Below are positions 1,090 to 37,177 of a stretch of 64,000 bases of DNA, piece after piece. Source of the DNA: an uncultured Acholeplasma sp. (GTDB lineage: Bacteria > Bacillota_I > Bacilli_A > Acholeplasmatales > Acholeplasmataceae); assembly GCA_964648225.1 (NCBI GenBank), contig CAZYKH010000001.1:135959-199958 (forward strand), given 5' to 3'. The notes under the pieces were generated by a model. The model ran no database searches, was not told the DNA's origin, and saw only the letters and a program-made list of their open reading frames with translations. How positions within the stretch are numbered: the stretch's first letter is position 1; every line of letters begins with the position of its first letter. Made by a program: the position numbers and the translations under genes.

Positions 1090-1093
1090 TCTA

Positions 1094-1558: not shown

Positions 1559-1559
1559 A

Positions 1560-2477: not shown

Positions 2478-2482
2478 AATTA

Positions 2483-13675: not shown

Positions 13676-13684
13676 ATAATCCTC

Positions 13685-15500: not shown

Positions 15501-15513
15501 ATAGATCCTCTTT

Positions 15514-18429: not shown

Positions 18430-18458
18430 AATGCCTCACCTCAATGAAAATGGTACCT

Positions 18459-18491
18459 CCTTCCTTATGTCATATAAAAACATAAGGAAGG
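18459..18491 (-). promoter_or_regulatory. intercistronic stem-loop between the two binding-protein genes
   Basis: Perfect 11-bp stem CCTTCCTTATG / CATAAGGAAGG (18459-18469 / 18481-18491) with an 11-nt loop and no immediate T-run. Likely an mRNA-stabilising or partial terminator element downstream of the first SBP gene. Confidence 0.5.
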
Positions 18492-18511
18492 TTATACCAA
18501 GTTCGTTTCTT

Positions 18512-20095: not shown

Positions 20096-20209
20096 TTTTT
20101 ATCTCCTTTTTTTAAAAAGTATTTGTCACCAATATTATACTATGTATATAGTATCTATGAATTTATTACACTAAATTATGCTTGATATTTTCACATTATT
20201 AAAATCTTT

Positions 20210-20223
20210 TTCAAACGCTTACA
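20210..20223. promoter_or_regulatory. cre-like box upstream of the SBP-to-nagB operon
   Basis: Minus strand reads TGTAAGCGTTTGAA, a 12/14 match to cre consensus TGWAANCGNTNWCA. Lies between the terminator at 20243-20270 and the operon start. Confidence 0.4.
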
Positions 20224-20242
20224 TAATCTACCATAATGAAAC

Positions 20243-20270
20243 AAAAAGCCCAATTTATCATTGGGCTTTT
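20243..20270 (-). terminator. rho-independent terminator of the 822-aa surface protein gene
   Basis: Stem AAAGCCCAA / TTGGGCTTT with a 7-nt loop, followed on the minus strand by TTTTTGT. Confidence 0.8.
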
Positions 20271-20287
20271 CGAATTAAACTAATTTC

Positions 20288-22905: not shown

Positions 22906-25900
22906 TTATCTAGTTGTACCTGGTACGAATACATTGAATGTACGTGTACTTGTTTGACCATCTAATATAACTGTAATTGTATAACTTACTGTGGTATTAT
23001 GAGTGGGCATTGATATAACACGTCCCGCATGATCAATAATTTCAGGATTACTTGAAACCATCGAAATTTGAGCATTTGCATAGTTTAATGCAACCTCATA
23101 TTCGACGTCTGCCATCTTTTGAAATTTAGGCTCTAAACCTGAAACCAATAAGGCATTTGGACAATGTTTCCCAGAAAAATGTTGATGGAACTTAATGTGT
23201 TCTCTTGGAAGGTTATATTTAACCAGTGTTTGAGATGCCCATTTAGCTGTTCTTTGCCAAATTCTATAAAGATCGTCACCCATACCAACGTTCATTTCAA
23301 TTGCAATAGCGTTTCTATTACCACCGCCTAACAGTTCCGGTCTAACGATGCCTTGGATTATCACAGGTCCACCTACAGGTGCACTGCCATCACCAGCATG
23401 CCATGCAACTTCTCCTTCAGGGATGTGTTGATACATTTCATAATCATCTATTGTGTAATGCCAAGATACTTGCGCACCATTATTAGCTGCCTGACCTAAT
23501 AAATAGTTAGCATGTGATAATGCACTAGACGATGGATCCGTATTTGCAGTATCATGCACAGTTATCCAGTGTACATTTTTGTCATTATACGTTATCGCCG
23601 GTTCTGGAATGTCAGATAATGCATATCCTGGTCTAACACGCCCGCCCTTGTATTGGTCTGGAATCATTTTTGTTGTATCAATTATAATTTCATCAAAATA
23701 GAAGTTTGAGACTGATTCATACCCAACAACTCGGTATGATGGACCTGTTCCTGTTTCCCAGAAATCATGTTTTTTAAGGTATGCTTGCTGATTTAATGTG
23801 AGTAGATCTAATAAGTTGTTTTCATCTAATGATTCGTAGAAAGTTACATAATACGTTTCATAGACTTCGCTATCATCTGCAAGTCTTACAGTGATAATGA
23901 CTTGACCCGCTGTATGCGATGTAACCACACCATTTTCATCTACAGTAGCGACCAAATCATTGGATGATTCAAAAGTTACCGCTTTATCTTGTATTGTAAT
24001 TGGGAAAGGTGTCGCTTCAATCGTTAGACTATCACCTGCAACAAGTGATTGTGTATCGATTGATGGTGTTAAATTAATACCCGGATCGGTAGTGACTTTA
24101 AAGTCAACTGTGGTTTCTGCATCAGATGCTCTTGATGATGCAGAAATTGTAATTGCTGCTTCACCACTTTGTTTTGGAACAAGTTTACCAGTACCTTCAA
24201 CCATGAGTATGTCTGCATCTGTAGTTCTAAATCTAAAACGAGCATTTTCTAGTTCATATGGTAAATATTCATACTCAATAAATAATTCTTCACCAACCCA
24301 AAGTGTATCTAAATCTGTGGTAACAAAAATGAATAATACAATTTCCGGATCAAAGTTTGCTTCAGATACAATATCTGCTTTTTCTTCATAATGACCTATA
24401 AGCATTCGTTCTGGAATATTTTCAAAATCATTTAAATCAAGTGTTTGGCTACCCCAAAAATTGAGCGTGAAATCAATATTAGAATTTAAGTTTGCAATTG
24501 CTCCTTTATCACTATAATTTACAACCGAATTAAAACGAACAAATGCAGATATTTCTGTCTCAGCTAGCATCACTTTAAATGCAGTTTCAATGTCTTCAAT
24601 ATCATTCCAAGCAATTTGTAGTGAAGTTTCTTCACTATATGTAGTACCTAAAACTTCTACAGCTACTTTGGTATTTTTAATGATATTGTTTTTAATATCT
24701 AATTTGCCATCTAGTATTTCTCTAACCAATATTGCATGACCATCAACATTAGAAATAGTGTTTTTATCCACATATAAAGTTGCTGCTAATGCAACATCTA
24801 TTGCAGCCAATACGGAAGCATCTAAATTACTAAATTCATTATGAACTACCGTTAGGTTTTCAGCACTTTCAAGTGCTTTGATAAACCCTTCATCACTAAA
24901 TTTGAATCCATCTATTGTTATACCCGGTGCATCAATTGTAAGTTGTTTGGTAATAACGACATTTGGTGTTGCAGCAATAAGCGTTACATCTGACTTGTCG
25001 AGTGTAATCGATGTATCTAATGTCATGTCAAAGACATGAATTTTAGTACCATCATTTGCTTTTTCTAATGCCGCTTCTAGTGTATTAAACAAGCTTGCGC
25101 CATAAATGAATTCTAAGTCATTAATTACAACTTTATCACCATCTTGTTTTGTTACATCAACTGCCAATTCATTATAAATTGTCATTTCATGATTTGCAAA
25201 AACTGCTTCATCAGCAATAGAGGTTGCAGTAATAACAACTACACCACTACCAACTGGTGTTACAACACCATCTTGGCTAACTTGAGCAACTGCTTCATCA
25301 CTTGATGACCAAATCACTTGAGGAACAGATGTTTCAGGACCTAAGATGGTTGTAAGTTTGACATTGCTGCCTACATTTAACTTCGTTTCACCTTCAATTA
25401 AGATTGTAGTAGCAACATCATAAACTATTAAGTCAATTGATGCTTTAACTGAACTATCTGATTTAAGTGTCATCGTAATCGTAAAGTCTCCTGGCGCAAT
25501 TGCAGTAATAATTCCACCTTCATCTACTGTTGCAACCAAGTCATTACTTGAACTAAATGTAACTTCCCCATCAGCTTCAAATTGTAATTGTAAGGTTTGG
25601 CCCTGCCATAAATAAGCACTTGGTTCTCCAATGGATAATTCAACAGTTGGCTCAGTCACCAAAACATCTACACTTTTAAAGACTTCTTCATCTGTTTTGG
25701 AAGTCACCTTAATCGTTGTATTACCAGCTTTTAAAGCAGTAATTAGGCCCGCATTAGATACATCAATAATTGATGGATCTGTAACATTTATCTCGTAACC
25801 AAGTGGGTCATTCGTTGTAATTTCTAGTTGAAATGTATCATCGACTTCTAAACTAATTGGGCCACTTGAAATACTTAATGTAATATCCTTTGTCGTATCA

Positions 25901-25974
25901 TCTGTACCTTCTGCACAAGCTACTAAAGTAACAAACGCTACAACAATACTTACCATAGTAAATATTTTCTTCAC
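22906..25974 (-). CDS. 1022-aa lipoprotein: Big_2 Ig-like repeats + parallel beta-helix-like region + N-acetylmuramoyl-L-alanine amidase (Amidase_2) domain
   Basis: GTG start with GGAGGAGG RBS and lipobox LVAC. Big_2-like segments (GLITALKAGNTTIKVTS, GIITAIAPGDFTITMT, GVVTPVGSGVVVITAT, GVVTSHTAGQVIITV). Amidase_2 region around aa 795-945 (nt ~23140-23592) has WITVHDTA, AWHAGDG, NAIAIEM and KHCP, so the Zn ligands His/His/Cys are present. Confidence 0.85.
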   Translation of the reverse strand: MKKIFTMVSIVVAFVTLVACAEGTDDTTKDITLSISSGPISLEVDDTFQLEITTNDPLGYEINVTDPSIIDVSNAGLITALKAGNTTIKVTSKTDEEVFKSVDVLVTEPTVELSIGEPSAYLWQGQTLQLQFEADGEVTFSSSNDLVATVDEGGIITAIAPGDFTITMTLKSDSSVKASIDLIVYDVATTILIEGETKLNVGSNVKLTTILGPETSVPQVIWSSSDEAVAQVSQDGVVTPVGSGVVVITATSIADEAVFANHEMTIYNELAVDVTKQDGDKVVINDLEFIYGASLFNTLEAALEKANDGTKIHVFDMTLDTSITLDKSDVTLIAATPNVVITKQLTIDAPGITIDGFKFSDEGFIKALESAENLTVVHNEFSNLDASVLAAIDVALAATLYVDKNTISNVDGHAILVREILDGKLDIKNNIIKNTKVAVEVLGTTYSEETSLQIAWNDIEDIETAFKVMLAETEISAFVRFNSVVNYSDKGAIANLNSNIDFTLNFWGSQTLDLNDFENIPERMLIGHYEEKADIVSEANFDPEIVLFIFVTTDLDTLWVGEELFIEYEYLPYELENARFRFRTTDADILMVEGTGKLVPKQSGEAAITISASSRASDAETTVDFKVTTDPGINLTPSIDTQSLVAGDSLTIEATPFPITIQDKAVTFESSNDLVATVDENGVVTSHTAGQVIITVRLADDSEVYETYYVTFYESLDENNLLDLLTLNQQAYLKKHDFWETGTGPSYRVVGYESVSNFYFDEIIIDTTKMIPDQYKGGRVRPGYALSDIPEPAITYNDKNVHWITVHDTANTDPSSSALSHANYLLGQAANNGAQVSWHYTIDDYEMYQHIPEGEVAWHAGDGSAPVGGPVIIQGIVRPELLGGGNRNAIAIEMNVGMGDDLYRIWQRTAKWASQTLVKYNLPREHIKFHQHFSGKHCPNALLVSGLEPKFQKMADVEYEVALNYANAQISMVSSNPEIIDHAGRVISMPTHNTTVSYTITVILDGQTSTRTFNVFVPGTTR

Positions 25975-27017
25975 TACTTTTCCTCCTCCATTTCATAAAT
26001 TATGTTCCCTATCTCATTTCTTAATCCAATGATTTGATTTAAATTTCTCTTAGGGTGGACCGCATTCGAAACTAAAACAAATCCCAATTTATTTTTCTTA
26101 TCGATAAACATATGACAACCTGTAAAACCTGTATGACCAATCGTTTGATCAAAATCACGGTACTTGCCAGCAAAACTATCATCATATGGTTTTAGATAAC
26201 CCAAGGTTCTTGTCACTTTGTAGCCCAAGGAATCATCAGTAATTACTGGTTCAAATAACATATCTGTTAATTGTTTGTTTAAAACAAATTCATCTTTTAA
26301 AATACTTTGAATGAATAATCCAATATCATAGGCTGTAGAAAACAAGCCGGCATGACCAGATAACCCACCTAGTAAATAAGATTTTTCATCATGGACTTGC
26401 CCTTTTAATAATCCTTTTGAAAAATCATCATCATGATATTCTGTAGGGGCAGCACGATTGACATCCGGTTTATAATTAGAATCTTTCATACTTAGTGGTT
26501 CAAAAACATACTTTATGGCTGCTTGATCAATGGGCATACCAAAAAGTTTTTCTGTAATTTTGCCCAGTAAGATAAACCCTACATCCGAATAAACTACTTT
26601 AGTGTGTGGTTCATATGTAAGTTCCATATTATAAATAATATCCATCACTGTACTACCATCTTTAACTGTACGTATTTTAGGTACATCTGCAGGTAGGCCT
26701 GATTGATGTGAAAGTAAATCTTTGATTGTTGTATTAGGGTGTTTATAACGTTCTAATAAAGTCTGTATTTTCGTTTCCAAACTTAATTGATTAAGCTCAA
26801 TTAATTTCATAATGAGCGTCGTTGTCGATATAACTTTTGTTAAAGAAGCTACATCATAAACTTCATCGCCTTTTAATACTTCCTTTGTTGGGTATATTTG
26901 TTTATACCCAACAAAGTCTGTTGTGATTTTATCTTTAGTTACGTAAGCATAGTGTGCGCCAGGAAATTTATTTTGTTCAATTGCACTTTGTAAAAACGCT
27001 TTTAATCTATTCATCAT
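25974..27017 (-). CDS. serine hydrolase of the beta-lactamase/AmiE (YbbE) family, cytoplasmic
   Basis: 347 aa with no signal peptide. Motifs SxxK (ASLTK), YSD and HTG (IGHTGFTG). Confidence 0.8.
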   Translation of the reverse strand: MMNRLKAFLQSAIEQNKFPGAHYAYVTKDKITTDFVGYKQIYPTKEVLKGDEVYDVASLTKVISTTTLIMKLIELNQLSLETKIQTLLERYKHPNTTIKDLLSHQSGLPADVPKIRTVKDGSTVMDIIYNMELTYEPHTKVVYSDVGFILLGKITEKLFGMPIDQAAIKYVFEPLSMKDSNYKPDVNRAAPTEYHDDDFSKGLLKGQVHDEKSYLLGGLSGHAGLFSTAYDIGLFIQSILKDEFVLNKQLTDMLFEPVITDDSLGYKVTRTLGYLKPYDDSFAGKYRDFDQTIGHTGFTGCHMFIDKKNKLGFVLVSNAVHPKRNLNQIIGLRNEIGNIIYEMEEEK

Positions 27018-30000
27018 GGTCTTTTCTTCATAATAAATACAATTGACGATACTACAAATATAATACCTATGACAACCGATGATATGATGCCTATGATTTG
27101 TAAGTTATTATTGCCTTCGGGTGTTTCTTCATCCGGTATTTCTTCACCTGGTGTTTCCTCATCTGGATTTCCATCAAACATATGTGTTTCCCAAGTATGT
27201 TCTACATCTTCTGTCCAATAATGTGTACTTAAACGATTAAGTGCTTTTTGCACTAAATCATTGTTTAAGTTTAATGATTTATATGAGAATATTGAACTAC
27301 CAATAATCTCTTCATATTGAGACATATATCTTAATTGTTCTAAGAATTCGGATTCATGCGGCCAATTATTAGAGTTTTCGGCATATCGATAAAAACCTTG
27401 ACCAATGATAAGATCTACATTTGTATCTTTAACCGTATCAACCCACCAATCCACTAAATCTGCAAAGCGTGCAGTTGAATGGTTAAATGGCCAATAAAGT
27501 TGCGGAATAATATAGTGTAACCAACCTTCTTTAACCCATTTTCTAGAATCTGCAAATTGTGCTGAATAGCTTGATAATCCCATAGAATTGGACCCTAATG
27601 GATCTTGAGATTTATTACGCCAAATACCAAATGGTGAAATACCAAATTTAACATGCATATCATTAGCTTCATTATGTGCTTCAACTAAATTAAAGATATC
27701 ACGAACAAGTGTATTAACATTTTCACGTCGCCAATCTTCACGTGATAACCCATTTGGATTAAAGTTTAAGAATGCATAATCATCTTCAGTATCTAATGTA
27801 CCGGAATAACTATAGAAGTAATCATCAAAATGAATACCATCAATTGCATAGTTTTCCATAATTTCTGCAACTATATTATATAAATATTGGCGTACTGCTG
27901 GCATACCAGGGTTTAAGATGAGTGCTCCATTTGTATCTTGAATGACATAGCTTGGGTTTTGTTTAGCGAAGTTAGAATCATGAAGTAATGATAATTGTTC
28001 TTCTTTGGAGCCCCCAGTATTAGATACTCGATAAGGGTTCATCCAAGCATGTACTTCAATACCTCGCTTATGTGCTTCATCTACTACAAATTCTAATACA
28101 TCCCAACCTACACCTACACCTTCTTCACCAGATAAATATCTAGAAAACGGGGCATATGCTGATGGATAAAATGCATCATTCATTGGTCTTGTTTGGAAAA
28201 ATAAGGTATTAAATTTCAATGTTTTCATACGTTCTAAAGCATTAATGATACTCGCTTTATATGATGCTTCATCTTCATATTGTGCTATATCAATGTTCGC
28301 TACAGTCGCTAGCCAAACAGCACGTATTTCTTTCGTTTTTTCAGTATATGAAGTAGGTAATTCTACTGGTGTATCCGTTTGATAATATGTAACTTTTTGT
28401 CCATTTCTGACAACAAATTGATTATCTTCAGTCAGCGGAATACGTACACGTACACGCACATCTAAAACATCTGATTCGATACCATTTTCAGCAATCGATT
28501 TATATTCTACGCGGAAGTTTGCTGATTCTGTGAATGTAAAACTTTCAGTGTAGATTTTCCATTCAGACCAATCAATACCATTATGGATACGGTAACTAAT
28601 TGTATCTGTTTCATTTTCCGCTTCTAAAATAACTTCAACCGGCTCAATAAAGTAGCCATCTTCTTCTGTACCATTTAATATAACTGTAACCTCACCCGGT
28701 CCTTCAACAATATTAAATTGATAACTAAATATTTTTTCTTGTGGTCCATTGCGATATTCTAATGTATAGTGTCCTAGTTGTTCATATAATATAGGTTCAA
28801 CATATTGTTGCCATGCACCACCATTTACACGATATCTTGGTTCTGGTGCATTTGGATCAAACTGGATATCTACTTCTAGCCACTCGAAATTAGGGGCAAC
28901 ACCATCTCCTGCAATTTGAATAGTTGGATCTGTGTAATTTGAAACTATTTTTAAGTTTTGTTGTATAGCATTTGATTCAACACCACCAGCATCAATTGTT
29001 TTAGCAAATACTGCATAATTTCCAGTATCTGTTAAGGTGATCGGACCTTCATAAAGTTCCCAAGGCCCAATACTTCCGTGGTTAATACGGACCCAAATTT
29101 CATGATCCTGTGCTGTAATTTCAATGTGTGCACCAGATTCATAATTATCCCCTATTTTATTACCAACGATTGTAATTTCAGGGACAACAAGGTTTTCTAT
29201 TTCTGTATAAAATGTTGTAACGAGTGTTTTCGATGCAACATCATTCGTATCAATCGCTTTATAATAAAGTTCGTGTCTCCCATTTGAAATAACTTCAATA
29301 GGTTCAGTATAAGTTACCCAAGTTTCTTGATCAAAACTATATAAAATATCATGATCACTTGTAAGCGTAATTGTTACTTGTGACATAAAGCGTTGGCCAA
29401 TGAAATCACCATCAAAGCTAATAGTTGGTGCTTCAACACTACTTTCTGGTAAATCACTTAAATGATTTGTGTAAGATAATGCTCTAACACCATATGTGTA
29501 ATTTGTAGATGTATCATTAGAATCCCAAGTGATTGTGGATTGTCCATCGTTATAAATAACATCTACAATTTGACTTTGTTCATATGCTAGTGCATCATCT
29601 GTTTTATAAATATAATAAAACTTTGCATCACTGTGACCATCAAATGTCAGTTCACCAGTTGCTGCATTATGTACAACGTTTGTTACCGTTGGTACTTTAA
29701 CTGGTGTCATACTTTTTAATGGTGGTAAGACTGCGATATGATTAAAATGATTATTGCGTGCATTGGTTAAATTTGCTTGTGATGGTCTATTTAAATTTTG
29801 ACCAGCATCGCGAATCATATTATATGAATAAATTGAAAAGCCTTGAACATTTTCATAAGTACTTAATATATCTAATTGATTACTAAATTCATTAGGATTA
29901 TTACGCCAAGAATAAACATTAGATTGGGTACCAGCATCTGCTAGATAAAGACCAACACCTGAATATAGGTTTACATCTAAGTATCTAACAACTTTTTCCC

Positions 30001-31024
30001 ACCAACCCATAACATCTTCAAGACCAGCTTGAGGATGAGTGATTGCCCAATAACTTTGAGGTAGCATATAATCTAGCCATCCTTCTTTGATCCAATGTAG
30101 CGTATCGGCAAATAAATAAGATTGATAATGTTCTTGTCCACTTGTTTTAGAACCATTGGTGATTGGCATACCATTAGAATCATAAGTCACTTCACCGTTA
30201 CCGTTTCTATAAATACCGGTTGGTGAAATACCAAATTGTACATAACGATTATTATCGATGTTAAATTGTTTGATTGCTTCATGGGTTGCTTCTATAAATA
30301 AATTTATTTGTTCACGGCGCCAATTACTCTTGCCTGCAACCGTATTTGGTTGTCCTAAAGGATCTGCTAAAAATAGTGTTTGATCTGGGTCATTTAAAAT
30401 ACTACCATTACCCATTTCCATATAAAAGTAATCATCAAAATGGATAGCATCTACATTATAGTTTTCAATAATCTCTAGAATTGTATTGACCACATGTTCT
30501 CTAACCACTGGTAAGGCAGGGTTTAATATGTGTGCTGTATTTTCTTTATTAGACAAAATATTTGCGGGATTACTTTGCGGATTTTCAGTTGGCATCGTTC
30601 CTCTTTGATAAGTGGTTGAAACACGATAGGGATTTAACCAAGCATGAAATTCAATACCACGTTTATGTGCTTCATCAATGAAGTATGCCATCGGATCAAA
30701 TACATCAAAATCAACACTTGAAAACCAGCTTGCTACTGGGTTAATTTCAGATTTATATAATGCGTTATTATGTGTTCTCATATGTACGATTGCAACATTT
30801 AAATTATTAATTTCCATATTATTTAATATGGCATTGACTTCATTTTTAAATGCTTGCTCGGTGGAGTATGCCTGCATACTACCAATAAAATGTGTGATCC
30901 ATGTTGCTCTAAACTCACCTTGTTCTTCTGCAACTTCAACTTCCGGATAAGCATAAACTTTTTGATTTGGAACAAGTGTGAGTGCTAAAATACTTATCAG
31001 TAAAAACAAAACTACTTTTTTCAT
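27014..31024 (-). CDS. 1336-aa surface enzyme with two GHL10 (DUF187, YngK/YddW-DigH-like) glycosidase domains, an Fn3-like domain and Ig-like repeats between them, and a C-terminal TM anchor
   Basis: Signal peptide. GHL10 signatures occur twice (HAWLNPYRVS + AIHFDDYFY; HAWMNPYRVS + GIHFDDYFY). P/E/T-rich linker, then TM IIGIISSVVIGIIFVVSSIVFI followed by MKKRP. Confidence 0.8.
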   Translation of the reverse strand: MKKVVLFLLISILALTLVPNQKVYAYPEVEVAEEQGEFRATWITHFIGSMQAYSTEQAFKNEVNAILNNMEINNLNVAIVHMRTHNNALYKSEINPVASWFSSVDFDVFDPMAYFIDEAHKRGIEFHAWLNPYRVSTTYQRGTMPTENPQSNPANILSNKENTAHILNPALPVVREHVVNTILEIIENYNVDAIHFDDYFYMEMGNGSILNDPDQTLFLADPLGQPNTVAGKSNWRREQINLFIEATHEAIKQFNIDNNRYVQFGISPTGIYRNGNGEVTYDSNGMPITNGSKTSGQEHYQSYLFADTLHWIKEGWLDYMLPQSYWAITHPQAGLEDVMGWWEKVVRYLDVNLYSGVGLYLADAGTQSNVYSWRNNPNEFSNQLDILSTYENVQGFSIYSYNMIRDAGQNLNRPSQANLTNARNNHFNHIAVLPPLKSMTPVKVPTVTNVVHNAATGELTFDGHSDAKFYYIYKTDDALAYEQSQIVDVIYNDGQSTITWDSNDTSTNYTYGVRALSYTNHLSDLPESSVEAPTISFDGDFIGQRFMSQVTITLTSDHDILYSFDQETWVTYTEPIEVISNGRHELYYKAIDTNDVASKTLVTTFYTEIENLVVPEITIVGNKIGDNYESGAHIEITAQDHEIWVRINHGSIGPWELYEGPITLTDTGNYAVFAKTIDAGGVESNAIQQNLKIVSNYTDPTIQIAGDGVAPNFEWLEVDIQFDPNAPEPRYRVNGGAWQQYVEPILYEQLGHYTLEYRNGPQEKIFSYQFNIVEGPGEVTVILNGTEEDGYFIEPVEVILEAENETDTISYRIHNGIDWSEWKIYTESFTFTESANFRVEYKSIAENGIESDVLDVRVRVRIPLTEDNQFVVRNGQKVTYYQTDTPVELPTSYTEKTKEIRAVWLATVANIDIAQYEDEASYKASIINALERMKTLKFNTLFFQTRPMNDAFYPSAYAPFSRYLSGEEGVGVGWDVLEFVVDEAHKRGIEVHAWMNPYRVSNTGGSKEEQLSLLHDSNFAKQNPSYVIQDTNGALILNPGMPAVRQYLYNIVAEIMENYAIDGIHFDDYFYSYSGTLDTEDDYAFLNFNPNGLSREDWRRENVNTLVRDIFNLVEAHNEANDMHVKFGISPFGIWRNKSQDPLGSNSMGLSSYSAQFADSRKWVKEGWLHYIIPQLYWPFNHSTARFADLVDWWVDTVKDTNVDLIIGQGFYRYAENSNNWPHESEFLEQLRYMSQYEEIIGSSIFSYKSLNLNNDLVQKALNRLSTHYWTEDVEHTWETHMFDGNPDEETPGEEIPDEETPEGNNNLQIIGIISSVVIGIIFVVSSIVFIMKKRP
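28445..29428 (-). repeat. four tandem ~75-85-aa Ig-like repeats (chitobiase/hexosaminidase C-terminal-like) inside the 1336-aa ORF
   Basis: aa ~533-860. Each unit has the pattern (I/V)x(I/L)..., an aromatic core and a Y(K/R)xI(D/A) ending, for example ...HELYYKAIDTNDVAS, ...NYAVFAKTIDAGGVES, ...HYTLEYRNGPQEK, ...NFRVEYKSIAENGIES. Boundaries approximate. Confidence 0.5.
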
Positions 31025-32238
31025 TTGTTGTCCTTTCTATTATTGAGTAATTTTTTAACAAGGTCCATACCTTGTTTTTGCTTTTCAGGTTCAATAAATG
31101 TCTTATAAGTGAAAAACACATTACCTTGGATAGTATCAAATTGATTCGCATATTTTATTTGATTTACAATTTCATATGGGTTTGAGTAACCACCTTTTTC
31201 ACCTAAGCGATATGCACCATGGCCAATATATAAATCAACTTGAGTACCATCGCATACATTTGCCCACCATTTGGTTAAATCACCAAATGGTGCTAATTCA
31301 TGTTCAAAATCCCAATAAATTTGTGGAATAATATAATCTATGTAACCTTCTTTGACCCATAGGTAACTATCGGCATATTGATTATCAAACGATTGACTAC
31401 ATTTTGGATTAACGTTGGCTCCAAGCACATCTTTGGATTTTGTTTTCCATATACCAAATGGTGATACTCCAAAGCGTAGTTTAGGATGTTTTTCTTTAAG
31501 TGCTTCGTTTAAGTTTTTAATAACATTGGTAATTTGTGATCTTCTAAAATCACCAAGTGTTTGTGACTTATCATCTCTTCTTTCAAAGTCTTCTAAGTCA
31601 TTATCATCATCACTTAAACCAGCATATGGATAAAAGTAATCATCAAAATGAATACCATCCACATCATAGTTATCTGCTATTTCTAACATCGATTCAATAA
31701 TAAAGTCTTGAACTTGTTTTTTTGCAGGATTTAAAATGAGCTGTCTATTTTTATCAGTAACAACTAAGTCCGGATATTTTTTAGCGAAATTTAGGTCATC
31801 TAAAGTTTCTAAATATTCCATTTTAGACATATCAATTTTCATGCTCACACGATACGGATTACACCAAGCATGCACTTCAATATTTCTTTTTTTAGCTTCT
31901 TTAATGACAAAGTCTAACACATCAAATTTTGGTGCAACACCTTCTTTACCAGTTAAATATTTTGAATAGGGATTGAACTTAGATTTGTAAAAAGCATCAT
32001 TAGTTGTTCGCACTTGAAAAAATATTGCTGTCATATGATAAGCTTTTGCTGTATCTAACATTTGAATAACTTTTTGTTGATAATTAGGATCTTGTGTTGT
32101 TGGTAGATCTATGTTAAGGACATTGGATACCCAAAAAGCTCTAAATGGTTTTTCTTGATAGTTTTCGGGGATAATAATTTGTTCTTCTGTTTCGTAATAA
32201 TTTAGTGGCTTATTCGTACCAAAATATGTTAACTTCAT
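31021..32238 (-). CDS. cytoplasmic GHL10 (DUF187) family glycosidase-like protein
   Basis: 405 aa with no signal peptide. Same signatures as the other two domains: HAWCNPYRVS, GIHFDDYFY, GVSPFGIW. Confidence 0.8.
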   Translation of the reverse strand: MKLTYFGTNKPLNYYETEEQIIIPENYQEKPFRAFWVSNVLNIDLPTTQDPNYQQKVIQMLDTAKAYHMTAIFFQVRTTNDAFYKSKFNPYSKYLTGKEGVAPKFDVLDFVIKEAKKRNIEVHAWCNPYRVSMKIDMSKMEYLETLDDLNFAKKYPDLVVTDKNRQLILNPAKKQVQDFIIESMLEIADNYDVDGIHFDDYFYPYAGLSDDDNDLEDFERRDDKSQTLGDFRRSQITNVIKNLNEALKEKHPKLRFGVSPFGIWKTKSKDVLGANVNPKCSQSFDNQYADSYLWVKEGYIDYIIPQIYWDFEHELAPFGDLTKWWANVCDGTQVDLYIGHGAYRLGEKGGYSNPYEIVNQIKYANQFDTIQGNVFFTYKTFIEPEKQKQGMDLVKKLLNNRKDNK

Positions 32239-33533
32239 TTGTTATACACTCCATAGTATGTTAAATATTCTTTGTGCTTATCATATAATGCATTAAATGC
32301 ATCCTTGGTTGATTTAAATGATTTAGATAAGGGGTGAATTTGAAAAGCTAACAATGCCTTATTTAAATCTTTTTCATAAATTGCATCACATAGTAATTCT
32401 TCATATGCTTTTAAGTGTTGAACAATACCACGCACATGTAAAGGTAGTTCACCAATATGAACGGGTATTGGTCCATCTTTAGTCATGCGAGCGGTAATTT
32501 CAATAGACGTTTCATCGGGTATACCAACGATATGACCGTGGTTTACTGTATGAATGACATGGTAGTTTTTCTTGTTATTTTTAATAGAGTCCATAATTTC
32601 AACTGCGGTTTGAGCAAAACTATGATCTAAGAGCTTTTGCATGTCTTTAAAAACATTTAAAGTATTTTCATCAGCATATTTTTTATATAACAAGTCATTA
32701 AATTCAATCATTTGATTGGTTAGTATTTTTTTATTTTTTTGGTTATCTAAAAATGTTTTTGTAACGACTTCATCTTGATAATAATACTTTAAATTAGGAT
32801 GTGGATAACATCCTAAACGTTGTAGATTTTCTAAAGCCATCGGATGATTTTTTGGTAAAAATCCACCGGATAATAACTTTGGTAATTTATCTTTTCCTTT
32901 ATGATAAACTTTAAGCATAAAGGATAGTTCGCTTAAACCAGCATAATATGGGACAAGTTCATTAGGATGTGCTTTTAGTTTATCTATAACTTCCTTAGTT
33001 ATTTGATTTGGCTCATTTGATAGACCAATATAACGGTCAAACTCACTAAAACGACATACCGCTTCACTAATAATACCGGTTGGGTTTGTTGCATTAATCA
33101 CCCATGCTTTTGGGGCTAGTTCTTTAATGTCTTCGATCATTTCATAAATTACCGGAACAGTTCTTAAGGCATTAAATAACCCACCAATGCCTATCGATTC
33201 ATGACCAAGCATATTAAATTCAGCCGGTATGGTTTCGTCATAAAAACGTGCTTGCATGTGACCAACTCTAATTTGAATAAGAACAAAATCAGCATCCAAT
33301 AGACCATGTCTTTGGTTTAAGCTAGATGTAACTGAAATTGGTATGTTGTGATGTTTTAACATTCTTTGAATGAAATTGGTCATAATGTCTAAGCGTTCTT
33401 CACTTGTTTTTAAATCAATTAAAACTACTTCTGTAAATTTTAAATCATCATAATGTTTGATGATGTATTCAAATACTTCTGCTGTATTCGTTGATGCGCC
33501 ACCTAATATGGCCAGTTTTAGTTTTGTTTGCAT
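32235..33533 (-). CDS. GH4-like NAD-dependent glycosidase homologue with non-canonical metal-site residues
   Basis: 432 aa. By eye it aligns along its length to E. coli ChbF-type GH4 (KLAILGGASTNTAE, DADFVLIQIRVG, WVINATNPTGIISEA). It has IGLSNEP where GH4 has G(V/L)CN(I/V)P, and AGLSE where GH4 has GLNH. Confidence 0.75.
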   Translation of the reverse strand: MQTKLKLAILGGASTNTAEVFEYIIKHYDDLKFTEVVLIDLKTSEERLDIMTNFIQRMLKHHNIPISVTSSLNQRHGLLDADFVLIQIRVGHMQARFYDETIPAEFNMLGHESIGIGGLFNALRTVPVIYEMIEDIKELAPKAWVINATNPTGIISEAVCRFSEFDRYIGLSNEPNQITKEVIDKLKAHPNELVPYYAGLSELSFMLKVYHKGKDKLPKLLSGGFLPKNHPMALENLQRLGCYPHPNLKYYYQDEVVTKTFLDNQKNKKILTNQMIEFNDLLYKKYADENTLNVFKDMQKLLDHSFAQTAVEIMDSIKNNKKNYHVIHTVNHGHIVGIPDETSIEITARMTKDGPIPVHIGELPLHVRGIVQHLKAYEELLCDAIYEKDLNKALLAFQIHPLSKSFKSTKDAFNALYDKHKEYLTYYGVYNK

Positions 33534-33549
33534 TATATCACTTTCTTTT

Positions 33550-34698
33550 CTAGGTAAAGTATGAAACTGTACCTAACACTACATGTTTTTTAGCGCCGGT
33601 TGCGCTTGGTAAATTGGCTGTTTGTTGAAATAATGTTTGATTACCCAATACAATGAAGGCTAACGCTTCTTTATAATCACTTGATACCCCCACATCGTCA
33701 CTAGATAATACTTTAATATCTGGTAAAGATTTTTGTATAAAATTCATTAAAAATTGATTATGTACACCGCCACCAGAAATAATTAATTCATCGACTTCGT
33801 GTTTGTTTAAGATAAATTGTTTAATATTCGATATCATCGTTGATGCTGTTGCAACCGTTAAAGTATGAATGATATCTTCTGGTGCATGATTTTTGTATTT
33901 TGTCATTAAAGTTTGTGTGTATGCCCCACCAAATTGTTCTCTACCACAAGATTTTGGTGGCATTTGGTGAACAAATGGGTGCTGCATAATTTCATCATAT
34001 AACGGTAAGATGAGTTGACCTTTTTTTGCAATTTGACCACCATCATCATAAGGTTTGTTGTATAACTTTTCCATAGCATAATTAATCATCATATTGCCTG
34101 GTCCTGTATCAAATGCATAGACGTCATGTTCATTTTTCGTTTTTGGTAAATACGTAATATTAGAAATACCACCAATATTTTGTGCAATGCGTGATTTATC
34201 GCTACTTGACAATAATAGATAATCTACATAAGGTACAAGTGGTGCACCTTGTCCGCCTTGAATCATATCAGCAATTCTAAAATCAGAAACTACTGTTGTT
34301 TCTGTCAGTCCTGCAATGACTGAGCCACTACCTAATTGTAAAGTAGATGGTAATCTTGTATCTTCTATTTCGCTTTGATGGTAAACAGTTTGTCCGTGCG
34401 ATGCAATAAAGTTTAAGCTCGATGGGCTTAATTTTAATTCTTTACACAAACTGATAACACAACTTGCATAGAGCCGACCCAACTCAAAATGAAGACTCGA
34501 TACGTCTTTAACTGTTAGTTGGTCTGTCACTGCAAGTTTTACCTTTTCAAGTAACATTGGTGGATAATCAAATGTTTTACCTGCAATCATTTCTATTTTA
34601 GTTGTTAAACCAGTACCTGAGATGGTTGCTATCACTACATCAATGCCATCAAGCGATGTACCACTCATAATACCGCATGCTAACTTAGACTGATTCAT
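33550..34698 (-). CDS. anmK: anhydro-N-acetylmuramic acid kinase
   Basis: GIMSGTSLDGIDV N-terminal motif and AnmK-like length. Start moved from 34731 to ATG 34698, which has AAGAGG 8 nt upstream; the putative -10 element overlaps 34731. Confidence 0.9.
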   Translation of the reverse strand: MNQSKLACGIMSGTSLDGIDVVIATISGTGLTTKIEMIAGKTFDYPPMLLEKVKLAVTDQLTVKDVSSLHFELGRLYASCVISLCKELKLSPSSLNFIASHGQTVYHQSEIEDTRLPSTLQLGSGSVIAGLTETTVVSDFRIADMIQGGQGAPLVPYVDYLLLSSSDKSRIAQNIGGISNITYLPKTKNEHDVYAFDTGPGNMMINYAMEKLYNKPYDDGGQIAKKGQLILPLYDEIMQHPFVHQMPPKSCGREQFGGAYTQTLMTKYKNHAPEDIIHTLTVATASTMISNIKQFILNKHEVDELIISGGGVHNQFLMNFIQKSLPDIKVLSSDDVGVSSDYKEALAFIVLGNQTLFQQTANLPSATGAKKHVVLGTVSYFT

Positions 34699-34731
34699 AA
34701 TCAAAACCTCTTTAATTTGTGATATTTTCAT

Positions 34732-34832: not shown

Positions 34833-34843
34833 TTCGTTTTTAG

Positions 34844-35689
34844 TTATCGTTTAAATTTTTTAAATGTTCGATATGTAGTTTCTAATGCTTGCACAGATCG
34901 GTCAATATCGGTATACGCACATTTTGCATACAATGCATCTATAACAGACATTTGAGAAATTCTTGATGTCATCGCTGCACTTCTAAATTCTGACTCTAAT
35001 GCCGATGTATATAATACAACATCAGATATATCTGCTAAAATACTGGAACCAATTCTAGTAATACTAATAATTGGTGTTTTATTTTCTTTGGCTAATAATG
35101 CTGAAGAAACTATTTCTTTTGTCTTACCAGAGTTTGAAACAAATATAACAACATCCTTATGATTAATAAATGATGCATCGACTAATTGATCGTGTGATTC
35201 ACCTTGTGCAATACAAAACTTATTAATACGTCTAAGTTTCATTTCCAAATCTTTACATACTAAATAACTAGAACCTTTACCAAAAATTAAAATCTTTCGA
35301 GCACTCATTATTAATTGGGCAGCTTTAGTATATGTTTTTTCATCATAAAGATTAATGGTCTCTTCTAAAGCTCTAATATTATTTTCAATTGCCTTGCGTC
35401 CACTATTTTGATCTTTAATTAAAATAACGTCTGTATACTCACTAGTTTCAGGTATTTCTACTTTAGAATTGGCTAGAATAAAGTCAATCTTAAAGTCTTT
35501 AAACCCTTTATATCCTAATTTTTTACACATTCTAACAACGGATGCAGGTGAAGTATAAGCGGCTTCAGCAATTTTTTCTACACTAAAATCTTTGATTTGA
35601 GTTTTGTTTTCAATCAAATAATCTAAAACAATGCGTTCGGCCATACTTAGTGCTTCTTTATTTTTTAGCATGTTTAACATTACACTCAT
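34844..35689 (-). CDS. murR: MurR/RpiR family transcriptional regulator (HTH_6 + SIS)
   Basis: 281 aa. N-terminal RpiR-type HTH (IAEAAYTSPASVVRMCKKLGYKGFKDFK) and a C-terminal SIS domain (ILIFGKGSSYLV). Confidence 0.85.
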   Translation of the reverse strand: MSVMLNMLKNKEALSMAERIVLDYLIENKTQIKDFSVEKIAEAAYTSPASVVRMCKKLGYKGFKDFKIDFILANSKVEIPETSEYTDVILIKDQNSGRKAIENNIRALEETINLYDEKTYTKAAQLIMSARKILIFGKGSSYLVCKDLEMKLRRINKFCIAQGESHDQLVDASFINHKDVVIFVSNSGKTKEIVSSALLAKENKTPIISITRIGSSILADISDVVLYTSALESEFRSAAMTSRISQMSVIDALYAKCAYTDIDRSVQALETTYRTFKKFKR

Positions 35690-37174: not shown

Positions 37175-37177
37175 TAC

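What the first reader, a model, noticed from the sequence alone, without database searches (positions are those of the whole stretch)
27014..31024. Tandem-catalytic surface enzyme: two GHL10 (DigH/YddW-like) domains separated by an Fn3-like domain and four Ig-like repeats
GHL10/DUF187 is a poorly characterised family. The one studied member I know of, E. coli DigH (YddW), cleaves denuded, peptide-free peptidoglycan glycan strands. Here two full GHL10 domains (aa ~35-430 and ~897-1290) share the signatures HAW(L/M)NPYRVS and (A/G)IHFDDYFY. They are fused in one 1336-aa TM-anchored protein, two genes upstream of an Amidase_2 lipoprotein in the same operon; that amidase would produce denuded strands. 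Dual catalytic domains could provide endo plus exo, or processive, cleavage of the glycan.
Basis: partly seen in the sequence, partly recalled or inferred. Interest (0 to 1): 0.7.

Follow-up and report, generated by a model that had tools for sequence, protein, structure and literature searches.

The report
Two-headed peptidoglycan cutter of wall-less bacterium
A bacterium that has no cell wall of its own (an uncultured Acholeplasma) displays on its surface a large enzyme with two complete peptidoglycan-cutting heads on a rigid stalk, inside a roughly 38-kb gene cluster that appears to digest, import and burn the cell walls of other bacteria.

Summary
Window 27014-31024 (-) encodes a 1336-aa protein made of these parts:
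- a signal peptide
- GHL10 domain N
- one Fn3-like module
- four homologous Ig-like repeats
- GHL10 domain C
- an acidic linker
- a C-terminal membrane anchor

Both heads keep all 39 universally invariant GHL10 positions. Both are under strong purifying selection (dN/dS 0.05 and 0.04).

The closest solved relative is C. difficile Cwp19, a lytic transglycosylase, not only DigH. The architecture is not unique: 107 of the 120 best database relatives are two-headed.

All named relatives are Acholeplasma, Acholeplasmataceae or Izemoplasmatales, which are wall-less Mollicutes. The enzyme therefore cannot remodel its own wall.

The gene sits in a conserved operon: AnmK, GH4, a cytoplasmic GHL10, the target, a beta-lactamase-fold hydrolase and an Amidase_2 lipoprotein. 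That operon lies within a larger locus holding ABC importers, NagZ, NamZ, a kinase, MurQ, NagB and a D-lactate-type oxidase.

Best reading: the protein is the surface depolymerase of a system that forages on foreign peptidoglycan. Division of labour between the two heads (endo/exo, or hydrolase versus lytic transglycosylase) remains untested. I found no literature describing this locus.

The parts
27014..31024 (-). Whole gene: 1336-aa two-headed GHL10 surface protein.
   Evidence: ORF and translation. Pfam GHL10 in two stretches. 100% identical to database protein P0122.
30950..31024 (-). Signal peptide, aa 1-25 (MKKVVLFLLISILALTLVPNQKVYA|YPE). No lipobox.
   Evidence: N-terminal hydrophobic segment and sequence inspection. 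The cleavage site is inferred.
29720..30934 (-). GHL10 head N (N-type), aa ~31-435. Membrane-distal.
   Evidence: Domain hit. 34% identity to Cwp19, E 5e-67. 39/39 universal core residues. 11/13 Cwp19 active-site residues identical, with Q77H and F367Y. dN/dS 0.052.
29429..29719 (-). Fn3-like beta-sandwich module, aa 436-532.
   Evidence: All-beta in the AF2 model. Not homologous to the four repeats. Foldseek matches to Ig/Fn3 chains.
28439..29428 (-). Four homologous Ig-like repeats (CHB_HEX_C_1 / Fn3_assoc / OmpL47-type): R1 aa 533-610, R2 611-696, R3 697-775, R4 776-862. They form the stalk between the heads.
   Evidence: hhalign probability 98-99.5% between repeats. NCBIfam NF047446 scores 57.6 bits against a cutoff of 40. 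Weak PF13290 hit, and PF13290/PF13287 are precomputed on homologs. pLDDT above 90. dN/dS 0.064.
28349..28438 (-). Conserved linker, aa 863-892 (IPLTEDNQFVVRNGQKVTYYQTDTPVELPT).
   Evidence: Conserved across the family in alignment A1. No amino-acid differences from the 96% ortholog.
27155..28348 (-). GHL10 head C (C-type), aa ~893-1290. Membrane-proximal.
   Evidence: phmmer to Cwp19 5OQ2, E 1e-92. 42% identity to Cwp19 and 36% to DigH. 13/13 active-site and 39/39 core residues. dN/dS 0.043.
27017..27154 (-). Acidic Pro/Glu-rich tether (aa ~1291-1305), C-terminal TM helix (aa ~1306-1330) and cytoplasmic KKRP tail.
   Evidence: Hydropathy peak of 2.9 at aa 1306-1331. Linker composition.
31021..32238 (-). 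Upstream single-domain GHL10 (405 aa) with no signal peptide. Predicted cytoplasmic. 4-bp overlap with the target.
32235..33533 (-). GH4 glycosidase, cytoplasmic, specificity unassigned.
   Evidence: Pfam GH4 N and C domains. NCBIfam hits are below cutoff. Conserved at this position in all relatives.
33550..34731 (-). AnmK, anhydro-N-acetylmuramic acid kinase. First gene of the operon.
   Evidence: NCBIfam equivalog NF007142 scores 537 bits against a cutoff of 435.
34844..35689 (-). RpiR/MurR-type regulator (HTH_6 + SIS).
   Evidence: Pfam. 72-97% identical across the clade.
25974..27017 (-). Beta-lactamase-fold serine hydrolase (347 aa), PBP4B/YfeW-like, no signal peptide. 4-bp overlap with the target.
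22906..25974 (-). Lipoprotein with Big_2 repeats and an Amidase_2 (N-acetylmuramoyl-L-alanine amidase) domain. Last gene of the operon.
   Evidence: Pfam. Lipobox LVAC.
367..22756 (-). Downstream part of the locus, in transcription order:
- 822-aa unknown surface protein
- Ig/SBP lipoprotein
- 971-aa SBP
- two ABC permeases
- TPR protein
- Yip1
- DUF5696
- two ABC permeases
- DUF624
- NamZ
- GH3 NagZ
- BadF-type sugar kinase
- MurQ
- GNAT
- NagB
   Evidence: Promoter at 22832-22804 and terminator at 20272-20242.
35771..38746 (-). Head of the locus: secreted NAGPA-domain phosphodiester glycosidase (37178-38746) and an FAD-linked oxidase of the D-lactate dehydrogenase type (35771-37174).
   Evidence: Conserved in relatives, with ETF subunits in some.

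Best explanation
The protein is the cell-surface depolymerase of a system that forages on foreign peptidoglycan, in a wall-less acholeplasma.

Anatomy:
- It is exported by a signal peptide.
- It is held on the membrane by a C-terminal TM helix and a short acidic tether.
- The C-type GHL10 head sits next to the membrane.
- A stalk of five beta-sandwich modules, roughly 15-20 nm if extended, carries the N-type GHL10 head outward. The length is inferred from typical Ig/Fn3 module size.

Activity:
- Both heads are catalytically competent members of the Cwp19/DigH family. They cleave the GlcNAc-MurNAc glycan backbone of peptidoglycan from other bacteria, either dead cells and wall debris or possibly live neighbours.
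- The co-transcribed Amidase_2 lipoprotein removes stem peptides, which favours a preference for denuded strands as in DigH.
- The products are oligosaccharides with reducing MurNAc ends or 1,6-anhydroMurNAc ends.

Downstream steps:
1. The two CUT1-type ABC systems of the locus import the oligosaccharides.
2. Cytoplasmic enzymes (single-domain GHL10, GH4, NagZ, NamZ) reduce them to monosaccharides.
3. AnmK and a BadF-type kinase phosphorylate the monosaccharides.
4. [quoted passage not shown]
5. NagB and an FAD-linked D-lactate oxidase feed central metabolism.

Shown here: the architecture, the integrity of and selective constraint on both heads, the topology, the operon structure, the conservation of the locus, the identities of AnmK, MurQ and NagZ, and the taxonomic restriction to Mollicutes.

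Inferred: the substrate, the bond cleaved, the reaction type, the order of steps, and any division of labour between the heads.
For: Family assignment:
- Two full GHL10 domains.
- The C head matches the solved Cwp19 structure at E 1e-92.
- Both heads align end to end with Cwp19 and DigH.
- Both of those enzymes act on peptidoglycan. Cwp19 is a lytic transglycosylase (PMC6016235). DigH is a hydrolase specific for denuded glycan (PMC12288456).

Catalytic integrity:
- 13/13 (C) and 11/13 identical plus 2 conservative (N) of the Cwp19 pocket residues listed in PMC5765458.
- 39/39 universally invariant positions in each head.
- Near-invariance of these residues in both heads across 105 two-headed relatives.
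- dN/dS of 0.052 (N), 0.043 (C) and 0.064 (stalk) against a 96% ortholog.

Context:
- AnmK, MurQ and NagZ pass curated equivalog cutoffs.
- NamZ, Amidase_2, an RpiR regulator, NagB, SBPs and permeases lie in the same 38 kb.
- Start/stop overlaps indicate translational coupling.
- The topology splits cleanly into surface proteins and cytoplasmic proteins.

Conservation:
- The gene order is the same in A. laidlawii, A. hippikon, a Tenericutes MAG and Izemoplasmatales.

Host:
- Named relatives are all Acholeplasma, Acholeplasmataceae or Izemoplasmatales.
- This lineage is Mollicutes, defined by lack of a peptidoglycan wall (PMC4628116; PMC8397711).

Ecology:
- In stable-isotope probing of pig manure slurry, Acholeplasma was the dominant early assimilator of 13C from dead E. 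coli cells (PMC4628116).
Against: - There is no biochemical evidence for any member of this two-headed subfamily.
- The reaction type of GHL10 enzymes is itself unsettled. Cwp19 is reported as a lytic transglycosylase, although products with reducing ends were also seen. DigH is reported as a hydrolase whose cleaved bond is undefined.
- The catalytic residues of the family are proposed from structure, not proven.
- One distant GHL10 protein, DogH (21% sequence similarity to Cwp19, as that paper reports), was reported to release maltose from starch. Pfam membership alone therefore does not fix the substrate.
- Only 64 kb of this genome is available, so the absence of peptidoglycan synthesis genes in this particular organism was not verified.
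- Some 'Tenericutes' lineages do carry such genes (PMC7301438).
- A. laidlawii lacks the Amidase_2 gene and A. hippikon lacks the beta-lactamase-fold gene, so the amidase-then-glycosidase order is not universal.
- No ABC ATPase gene is in the locus, although this is common for CUT1 systems that share an ATPase.
Confidence: 0.7

Rival explanations
1. Contact-dependent weapon. The enzyme is used mainly to breach the walls of living neighbouring bacteria (antagonism or predation). Nutrient recovery is secondary. This overlaps with the best explanation and differs only in the primary target and benefit.
For: - The enzyme is tethered to the cell rather than released, and one head is held far from the membrane.
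- A producer with no wall is intrinsically immune to its own peptidoglycan-degrading enzymes (inference).
- The close relative Cwp19 causes lysis.
Against: - The locus is built like a catabolic utilisation locus: importers, kinases, MurQ, NagB, a D-lactate-type oxidase and an RpiR/MurR-type sugar-phosphate regulator.
- There are no toxin, immunity or secretion-system genes in the 38 kb.
- The stable-isotope evidence concerns heat-killed cells.
- DigH-type preference for denuded strands would be poorly suited to intact walls.
Confidence: 0.12
2. The substrate is not peptidoglycan. The two heads act on another beta-linked HexNAc or glucan polymer, such as chitin, poly-GlcNAc biofilm matrix, host or plant glycans, or starch. 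The peptidoglycan-recycling genes nearby are only loosely associated.
For: - The GHL10 TIM barrel is structurally closest to the PgaB C-terminal domain, which binds PNAG.
- A distant GHL10 protein was reported to be active on starch.
- The locus also holds genes of unknown specificity: GH4, DUF5696 and NAGPA.
Against: - The heads are 29-42% identical to the two peptidoglycan-active members, whereas DogH is only 21% similar to Cwp19.
- The gene is translationally coupled within an operon that starts with AnmK and ends with a MurNAc-L-Ala amidase.
- This exact neighbourhood is conserved from Acholeplasma to Izemoplasmatales.
- MurQ and NamZ have no role outside MurNAc metabolism.
Confidence: 0.08
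3. Only one head is catalytic. The N-type head is a substrate-binding (lectin-like) pseudo-enzyme that targets or holds glycan strands for the C-type head.
For: - In the Acholeplasma subclade the N head is the more diverged of the two. It is 35% identical to the C head and carries Q77H. The beta1-alpha1 loop motif TVxNxDxP is replaced by THFIGSMQ.
- N-type heads carry Tyr instead of Phe at the pocket position Cwp19-367.
Against: - All 39 universal core positions are retained, including the DD pair, Arg132 and Tyr297 equivalents.
- dN/dS is as low as for the C head.
- One-headed proteins of about 905 aa with only an N-type head and a stalk exist (P0112-P0120). A pure binding module would make little sense in that form.
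Confidence: 0.07
4. Autolysin or own-wall remodelling enzyme, like DigH in E. coli or Cwp19 in C. difficile.
For: This is the role of both characterised family members.
Against: - All named relatives are wall-less Mollicutes.
- The protein has no cell-wall-binding modules such as CWB2, SPOR, LysM or SH3b.
- Anchoring is by a TM helix, as expected where there is no wall to bind.
Confidence: 0.03

Closest known systems
Cwp19 of Clostridioides difficile (GHL10; PDB 5OQ2/5OQ3)
   Same: - Same catalytic family and fold. The C head is 42% identical over 376 residues and the N head 34%.
- The same 13 pocket residues are present.
- It is secreted and surface-located.
- It degrades peptidoglycan and yields 1,6-anhydroMurNAc products. 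That matches the AnmK gene in this operon.
   Different: - Cwp19 has one head, followed by three CWB2 wall-binding repeats. It acts as an autolysin on its own wall.
- Here there are two heads, an Ig-like stalk and a TM anchor, with no wall-binding module and a host without a wall.
- The gene here lies in a catabolic operon.
DigH (YddW) of Escherichia coli
   Same: - GHL10 family. The C head is 36% identical and the N head 29%.
- It acts on peptide-free (denuded) glycan made by amidases, which parallels the co-operonic Amidase_2 lipoprotein here.
   Different: - DigH is a single-domain outer-membrane lipoprotein working at the cell's own division septum.
- It is not part of a catabolic locus.
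- It is described as a hydrolase (glucosaminidase or muramidase, undefined).
Bacillus subtilis murQ-murR-murP-amiE-nagZ-namZ peptidoglycan/MurNAc recycling operon
   Same: It shares MurQ, an RpiR/MurR regulator, NagZ, NamZ and possibly an AmiE-like beta-lactamase-fold amidase. The logic is the same: exo-enzymes reduce peptidoglycan to MurNAc and GlcNAc, which then pass through MurQ.
   Different: - In B. subtilis NagZ, AmiE and NamZ are secreted, and monosaccharides enter by PTS (MurP).
- Here NagZ, NamZ and the beta-lactamase-fold protein lack signal peptides.
- Uptake here is by SBP-dependent ABC systems, implying import of oligosaccharides.
- An endo-acting surface depolymerase (the target), AnmK, GH4 and a cytoplasmic GHL10 are added.
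- The purpose is feeding, not recycling of the cell's own wall.
Multi-catalytic surface glycanases and Gram-positive polysaccharide utilisation loci (for example two-headed cellulases/xylanases; the bifunctional autolysin Atl). This comparison is from my own knowledge.
   Same: - Two catalytic modules are joined by Ig/Fn3-like spacers on one cell-attached polypeptide.
- The gene is encoded next to an SBP/ABC importer, cytoplasmic exo-glycosidases and a regulator.
   Different: - Known two-headed enzymes usually combine different families. Here both heads are from the same family, as diverged paralogous types in a fixed N-to-C order.
- The polymer targeted is bacterial peptidoglycan.

Membership tests
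GHL10 (Pfam PF02638; Cwp19/DigH family) | Significant full-length match to the family profile. | tested here: met
   342 bits against a cutoff of 27.9, in two stretches. A local profile gives 614 and 691 bits over HMM positions 1-390 for the two heads.
GHL10 (Pfam PF02638; Cwp19/DigH family) | Homology over the whole (beta/alpha)8 barrel of the solved member Cwp19 (5OQ2). | tested here: met
   C head aa 892-1265 aligns to chain residues 19-380 at E 1e-92. N head aligns at E 5e-67 over 370 residues. The barrels themselves were not modelled here.
GHL10 (Pfam PF02638; Cwp19/DigH family) | Conserved pocket residues: Trp36, Gln77, Trp127, Arg132, Asp195, Asp196, Tyr197, Ser250, Gln295, Tyr297, Gly328 and the Phe367-Ser368 cis-peptide (PMC5765458). 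| tested here: met
   C head 13/13. N head 11/13 identical plus Q77H and F367Y. 39/39 universally invariant positions in each head.
GHL10 (Pfam PF02638; Cwp19/DigH family) | Cleavage of the peptidoglycan glycan backbone. | not testable with these tools
   Supported only by context (AnmK, MurQ, NamZ, NagZ and Amidase_2 in the same locus).
Lytic transglycosylases (functional class) | Non-hydrolytic cleavage giving 1,6-anhydroMurNAc ends. | not testable with these tools
   Cwp19 does this. An AnmK equivalog is the first gene of the operon. However, anhydro ends also occur naturally on Gram-negative strands, so AnmK does not prove lytic transglycosylase chemistry.
DigH-like denuded-glycan hydrolases | Preference for peptide-free glycan strands made by amidases. 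| not testable with these tools
   An Amidase_2 lipoprotein is co-operonic here and in Izemoplasmatales, a Tenericutes MAG and A. hippikon, but is absent in A. laidlawii.
B. subtilis-type MurNAc/peptidoglycan recycling operon | MurQ etherase plus an RpiR/MurR regulator. | tested here: met
   TIGR00274 scores 373 bits against a cutoff of 302. HTH_6 + SIS regulator.
B. subtilis-type MurNAc/peptidoglycan recycling operon | PTS transporter MurP for MurNAc uptake. | tested here: not met
   No PTS component was found among the locus proteins scanned. Four ABC permeases and two or three SBPs are present instead.
B. subtilis-type MurNAc/peptidoglycan recycling operon | Secreted exo-enzymes NagZ, AmiE and NamZ. 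| tested here: not met
   NagZ and NamZ homologs are present but have no signal peptide or TM segment. The beta-lactamase-fold protein is PBP4B/YfeW-like below cutoff. Its equivalence to AmiE rests on my recollection and was not tested.
Gram-positive-type polysaccharide utilisation locus (concept) | A surface endo-glycanase, an SBP-dependent ABC importer, cytoplasmic exo-glycosidases and a regulator in one conserved cluster. | tested here: met
   Topology map. Annotation. Conservation.

The most novel reading that the evidence does not exclude
Acholeplasmas and izemoplasmas lost their own wall and, with it, any self-toxicity of wall-degrading enzymes. They have since evolved a dedicated, vertically conserved machine of about 38 kb for eating the peptidoglycan of other bacteria.

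Its two-headed GHL10 enzyme carries two non-redundant chemistries on one stalk. One possibility is that the distal Tyr-type head is an endo-acting hydrolase or glucosaminidase on intact or denuded strands, while the proximal Phe-type head is a Cwp19-like lytic transglycosylase. That proximal head would trim fragments next to the importer into anhydro-oligosaccharides, which the cell then processes with a cytoplasmic GHL10, GH4 and AnmK.

This would be the first peptidoglycan 'PUL' described in wall-less bacteria. It would also be the first evidence for functional subtypes within GHL10, and a mechanistic basis for the necromass-scavenging niche of free-living Mollicutes.
Probability: 0.3. Interest if true: 0.8.

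Novelty: new variant of a known kind. Interest (0 to 1): 0.62.

Why it matters
GHL10 is a large family with only two peptidoglycan-active members studied, and its chemistry is still unresolved (lytic transglycosylase or hydrolase, and which bond is cleaved).

This subfamily offers a natural experiment. It has two diverged heads in a fixed order, naturally occurring one-headed versions, and a cytoplasmic paralog, all in one operon. Orthologs exist in a culturable model organism, A. laidlawii PG-8A (ABX80891.1).

The locus also gives a concrete and testable molecular explanation for a published observation: free-living Acholeplasma are first-line consumers of dead bacterial biomass. More broadly, it shows how peptidoglycan, a major pool of organic nitrogen and carbon, can be mineralised by organisms that do not make it.

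Practical interest:
- wall-degrading enzymes from a producer that needs no self-protection
- correct annotation, since NCBI's label 'family 10 glycosylhydrolase' suggests a GH10 xylanase, which this is not

Tried and rejected
1. BLASTP self-comparison of the middle region found no repeats. Pfam on single repeats gave only a sub-threshold CHB_HEX_C_1 hit. Profile-profile comparison was needed to show the four repeats.
2. Exact-sequence look-ups of the target and of P0122 found no contig. The source was traced through the neighbouring 822-aa protein instead.
It therefore gives only a sample of the taxonomic range. Within that sample, two-headed ORFs were confined to Mollicutes-type records.
4. 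I first thought the two heads arose by fusion of unrelated paralogs, because in this protein C is closer to Cwp19 and to the neighbouring single GHL10 than to N. Family-wide identities argue otherwise: N-C 0.46, N-single 0.38 and C-single 0.39. These favour an old duplication within the lineage followed by divergence.
5. A search for type-specific residues found only one robust position, Cwp19-367. Sequence alone therefore does not support a strong claim of different specificities.
6. Attempts to identify the beta-lactamase-fold protein as AmiE and to identify the 822-aa protein were inconclusive:
   - PDB sequence searches
   - an AlphaFold2 model with pLDDT 83
   - Foldseek, which returned only cadherin/Ig-like chains
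7. Papers that could not be read: Lazarev 2011 (A. laidlawii genome), Skennerton 2016 (Izimaplasma) and Yakhnina & Bernhardt 2020 (DigH).
8. Literature searches for a peptidoglycan or MurNAc catabolic locus in Acholeplasma, Tenericutes or Izemoplasma found nothing. That is absence in the held library only.

Full report
**1. The observation**

The minus-strand ORF 27014-31024 is intact and encodes 1336 aa. Pfam finds GHL10 (PF02638) twice, at 342 bits against a cutoff of 27.9. A six-frame scan of the whole window with a local GHL10 profile finds exactly three domains. Two are in this ORF (aa 35-439 and 897-1291) and one is in the upstream gene 31021-32238.

Hydropathy shows an N-terminal signal peptide and a single C-terminal TM helix at aa ~1306-1330. 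The helix is preceded by an acidic Pro/Glu tether and followed by KKRP.

The 460 residues between the heads resolve into two parts:
- One beta module (aa 436-532).
- Four mutually homologous repeats of about 80 aa (aa 533-862), with hhalign probability 98-99.5%.

AlphaFold2 with a 26-sequence alignment models this region as all-beta with mean pLDDT 87.8. Foldseek matches it to chains of Ig/Fn3-type domains such as GhpA fragments, complement MG domains and fibronectin. One repeat passes the NCBIfam 'OmpL47-type' domain cutoff. Homologs carry precomputed CHB_HEX_C_1 / Fn3_assoc hits.

**2. It is a conserved architecture, not a one-off**

A search of 5.8 billion proteins returned 1265 relatives. 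Of the best 120, 107 have two GHL10 domains and one has three. An identical protein is already in NCBI/ENA, unnamed, on a 252-kb contig. The source is a metagenome-derived organism.

Named relatives are as follows:
- Acholeplasma laidlawii, including the model strain PG-8A (ABX80891.1)
- A. hippikon
- Acholeplasmataceae MAGs
- 'Tenericutes'
- Candidatus Izimaplasma / Izemoplasmatales

In a capped sample of one genome per species, ORFs with two heads occurred only in such records. Single-domain GHL10 genes came from many phyla.

The family is modular:
- N-type head plus stalk without anchor (P0112-P0120).
- Stalk plus C-type head plus TM (P0109-P0110).
- Short-linker two-headed forms (P0102-P0108).
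- One N-N-C three-headed form (P0006).
- The order N-type then C-type is never reversed.

Family-wide mean identities are N-N 0.54, C-C 0.60, N-C 0.46, N-single 0.38 and C-single 0.39. Nearest neighbours are almost always of the same type. This indicates an old duplication within this lineage, with both copies retained since.

**3. Are both heads enzymes?**

I used the pocket residues proposed from the Cwp19 structure (PMC5765458). The C head has 13 of 13. The N head has 11 identical plus Q77H and F367Y. Across 105 two-headed relatives these positions are near-invariant in both heads.

I then aligned 295 GHL10 domains: N-type, C-type, 80 single-domain genes from many phyla, Cwp19 and E. coli DigH (fetched). 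Thirty-nine positions are at least 97% invariant. Both heads of the target have 39 of 39.

Against a 96%-identical ortholog, dN/dS is 0.052 for the N head, 0.043 for the C head and about 0.065 for the stalk. Neither head is decaying, and the stalk is also constrained.

The only robust type-specific difference lies at the aromatic residue before the cis-peptide that shapes the S1 pocket (Cwp19 Phe367). It is Tyr in 99% of N-type heads and Phe in 92% of C-type heads. In this protein the N head also has an insertion of about 10 residues after GISPTGIY and a diverged beta1-alpha1 loop. These are leads for different subsite preferences, not proof.

**4. What the family does**

Cwp19 is the closest solved relative (C head 42% identity, E 1e-92). 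It degrades peptidoglycan and yields 1,6-anhydro-muropeptides, which is lytic transglycosylase activity, along with some products carrying reducing ends (PMC6016235).

DigH (36% to the C head, 29% to the N head) degrades peptide-free glycan strands left by amidases at the E. coli septum. It is described as a hydrolase whose cleaved bond is not defined (PMC12288456).

A distant GHL10 protein, DogH (21% sequence similarity to Cwp19, as the paper reports), was reported to act on starch (PMC9967864). Context therefore matters.

**5. Context**

All genes from 367 to about 39400 are on the minus strand.

*Curated identifications*
- AnmK (33550-34731): 537 bits against a cutoff of 435.
- MurQ (1560-2477): 373 against 302.
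- NagZ (3360-4991): 209.5 against 207.

*Pfam additions*
- NamZ
- Big_2 + Amidase_2 protein
- RpiR/SIS regulator
- GH4
- beta-lactamase-fold protein, closest to PBP4B/YfeW
- NAGPA-domain protein
- FAD-linked oxidase
- BadF-type kinase
- four ABC permeases
- SBPs
- DUF5696
- DUF624
- GNAT
- NagB

*Operon structure*
- AnmK, GH4, GHL10, the target, the beta-lactamase-fold gene and the amidase gene overlap or abut.
- A perfect sigma-70 consensus promoter lies only after the amidase gene, at 22832-22804.
- A strong terminator lies at 20272-20242.

*Predicted topology*
- Surface proteins: NAGPA, the target, the amidase lipoprotein, an 822-aa unknown protein, the SBPs, the TPR protein and DUF5696.
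- Cytoplasmic proteins: single GHL10, GH4, AnmK, the beta-lactamase-fold protein, NamZ, NagZ, the kinase, MurQ and the oxidase.

*Conservation of gene order*

The order NAGPA, (ETF), FAD oxidase, RpiR, AnmK, GH4, GHL10, two-headed GHL10, beta-lactamase-fold, amidase, ~820-aa protein, SBPs recurs in A. laidlawii, A. hippikon, a Tenericutes MAG and Izemoplasmatales. A. laidlawii lacks the amidase gene and A. hippikon lacks the beta-lactamase-fold gene.

*Location*

The flanks are housekeeping genes such as PolC, PheST, LeuS, RlmN, RsgA and FakA. The locus is therefore chromosomal.

**6. The host changes the meaning**

Acholeplasma belongs to the Mollicutes. These are defined by absence of a peptidoglycan wall (PMC4628116; PMC8397711). 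Cultured Izemoplasma cells also show no wall. An enzyme of the Cwp19/DigH family cannot be an autolysin here.

The simplest reading is nutritional: the locus depolymerises, imports and catabolises peptidoglycan made by other bacteria. This fits RNA stable-isotope probing, in which Acholeplasma was the dominant early assimilator of 13C from heat-killed E. coli in pig manure slurry (PMC4628116). That paper attributed the result to peptide and amino-acid transporters and did not mention peptidoglycan.

**7. Proposed mechanism**

The steps below are inferred except where marked as shown.
1. The amidase lipoprotein strips stem peptides. The NAGPA protein may remove phosphodiester-linked wall polymers.
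2. The target cleaves the glycan backbone. It is tethered by its C terminus, with the C-type head near the membrane and the N-type head at the end of a five-module stalk (architecture shown).
3. The ABC systems import the oligosaccharides.
4. The cytoplasmic GHL10, GH4, NagZ and NamZ finish depolymerisation. Their lack of signal peptides is shown. It contrasts with the secreted B. subtilis enzymes (PMC8054146).
5. AnmK and the kinase make MurNAc-6P.
6. MurQ yields GlcNAc-6P and D-lactate.
7. NagB and the FAD-linked oxidase complete the route.

AnmK is consistent with lytic transglycosylase chemistry by the GHL10 heads. It would also be needed for the natural anhydro ends of Gram-negative strands.

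**8. Comparison and novelty**

The protein is a bona fide member of GHL10, because the sequence-defined features are met. Its activity class cannot be tested here.

It differs from Cwp19 and DigH in these respects:
- two heads
- an Ig-like stalk
- a TM anchor
- no wall-binding module
- catabolic rather than morphogenetic context
- a wall-less host

The locus resembles the B. subtilis murQ operon in its end steps. It fails two of that operon's defining features: PTS uptake and secreted exo-enzymes.

I found no paper describing this locus or a two-headed GHL10. Databases label the protein 'family 10 glycosylhydrolase'.

I rate it a new variant of a known kind, with moderate-to-high interest. The protein chemistry is expected. 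The biology, a conserved peptidoglycan-eating machine in bacteria that lack peptidoglycan, is not yet described and is directly testable in A. laidlawii.

Noticed in passing
window 31021-32238 (-): This single-domain GHL10 (405 aa) has no signal peptide, lipobox or TM segment, yet keeps 38/39 core residues. Both characterised family members are extracytoplasmic, so a cytoplasmic GHL10 implies intracellular cleavage of imported glycan oligomers. It is conserved directly upstream of the two-headed gene in all relatives examined.
   Followed up: partly
window 32235-33533 (-): A GH4 (NAD/Mn-type) glycosidase is conserved between AnmK and the GHL10 genes from Acholeplasma to Izemoplasmatales. NCBIfam hits (alpha-galactosidase subfamily) are far below cutoff. 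Its specificity in a MurNAc context is unknown. It could be an analogue of a 6-phospho-muramidase, which is speculation.
   Followed up: partly
window 20288-22756 (-): This 822-aa surface protein has a signal peptide and a C-terminal TM, its own perfect sigma-70 consensus promoter (22832-22804) and a strong terminator (20272-20242). Its family has only about 150 members, all 'hypothetical', and every named member is from Acholeplasma, Paracholeplasma, Mariniplasma, other Tenericutes or Izemoplasmatales. It has no significant (above-threshold) Pfam or NCBIfam match. The AF2 model has pLDDT 83, but Foldseek finds only cadherin/Ig-like chains. The fold of its N-terminal ~300 residues remains unidentified.
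   Followed up: partly
window 3360-4991 and 4924-6057 (-): The NagZ (GH3) and NamZ homologs lack signal peptides, whereas the B. subtilis enzymes are secreted. This suggests the cell imports oligosaccharides and does the exo-trimming inside. The two ORFs as listed overlap by 68 bp, and the NagZ ORF starts at TTG, so its true start may lie further downstream.
   Followed up: partly
window 25974-27017 (-) and 22906-25974 (-); loci L001, L085: The cytoplasmic beta-lactamase-fold hydrolase (closest to PBP4B/YfeW) and the Amidase_2 lipoprotein are alternately missing. A. laidlawii lacks the amidase and A. hippikon lacks the beta-lactamase-fold gene. This may reflect partial functional overlap in removing stem peptides. 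Equivalence to B. subtilis AmiE was not tested.
   Followed up: partly
window 37178-38746 (-): A secreted NAGPA-domain (phosphodiester glycosidase) protein is conserved at the head of the locus. It may cleave GlcNAc-1-phosphate phosphodiester links that attach teichoic acids or other polymers to MurNAc, exposing the glycan. This is speculation.
   Followed up: no
window 35771-37174 (-); loci L083, L084: An FAD-linked oxidase of the GlcD / D-lactate dehydrogenase type lies next to the regulator. In Izemoplasmatales and a Tenericutes MAG it is preceded by two ETF subunits. This fits use of the D-lactate released by MurQ.
   Followed up: no
window 15514-18429 (-) and 18512-20095 (-): There is an unusually large solute-binding protein (971 aa; the SBP domain occupies only aa ~580-876, after a ~550-aa N-terminal extension with a weak CBM35 hit). 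Next to it is a lipoprotein that combines an Ig-like surface domain with a weak SBP signal. No ABC ATPase gene is present in the locus.
   Followed up: no
window 6050-13675 (-): A second transporter module sits between the first ABC system and NamZ. It comprises a TPR protein with a C-terminal TM (603 aa), Yip1, membrane-anchored DUF5696 (862 aa, 528 bits), two permeases and DUF624. The role of DUF5696 is unknown.
   Followed up: no
window 367-1558 (-): A NagB-family deaminase and a GNAT acetyltransferase close the locus. NagA was not seen in the window and may lie beyond its start.
   Followed up: no
window 34811-34834: A perfect 10-bp-stem palindrome (AAAACACCTT TCAA AAGGTGTTTT) lies between the RpiR gene and AnmK. 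It could be a bidirectional terminator or a regulator operator.
   Followed up: no
database annotation of homologs (P0002, P0139 and others): NCBI names these proteins 'family 10 glycosylhydrolase' or 'glycoside hydrolase family 10 protein'. That invites confusion with CAZy GH10 xylanases. They are Pfam GHL10 (formerly DUF187), unrelated in function.
   Followed up: yes
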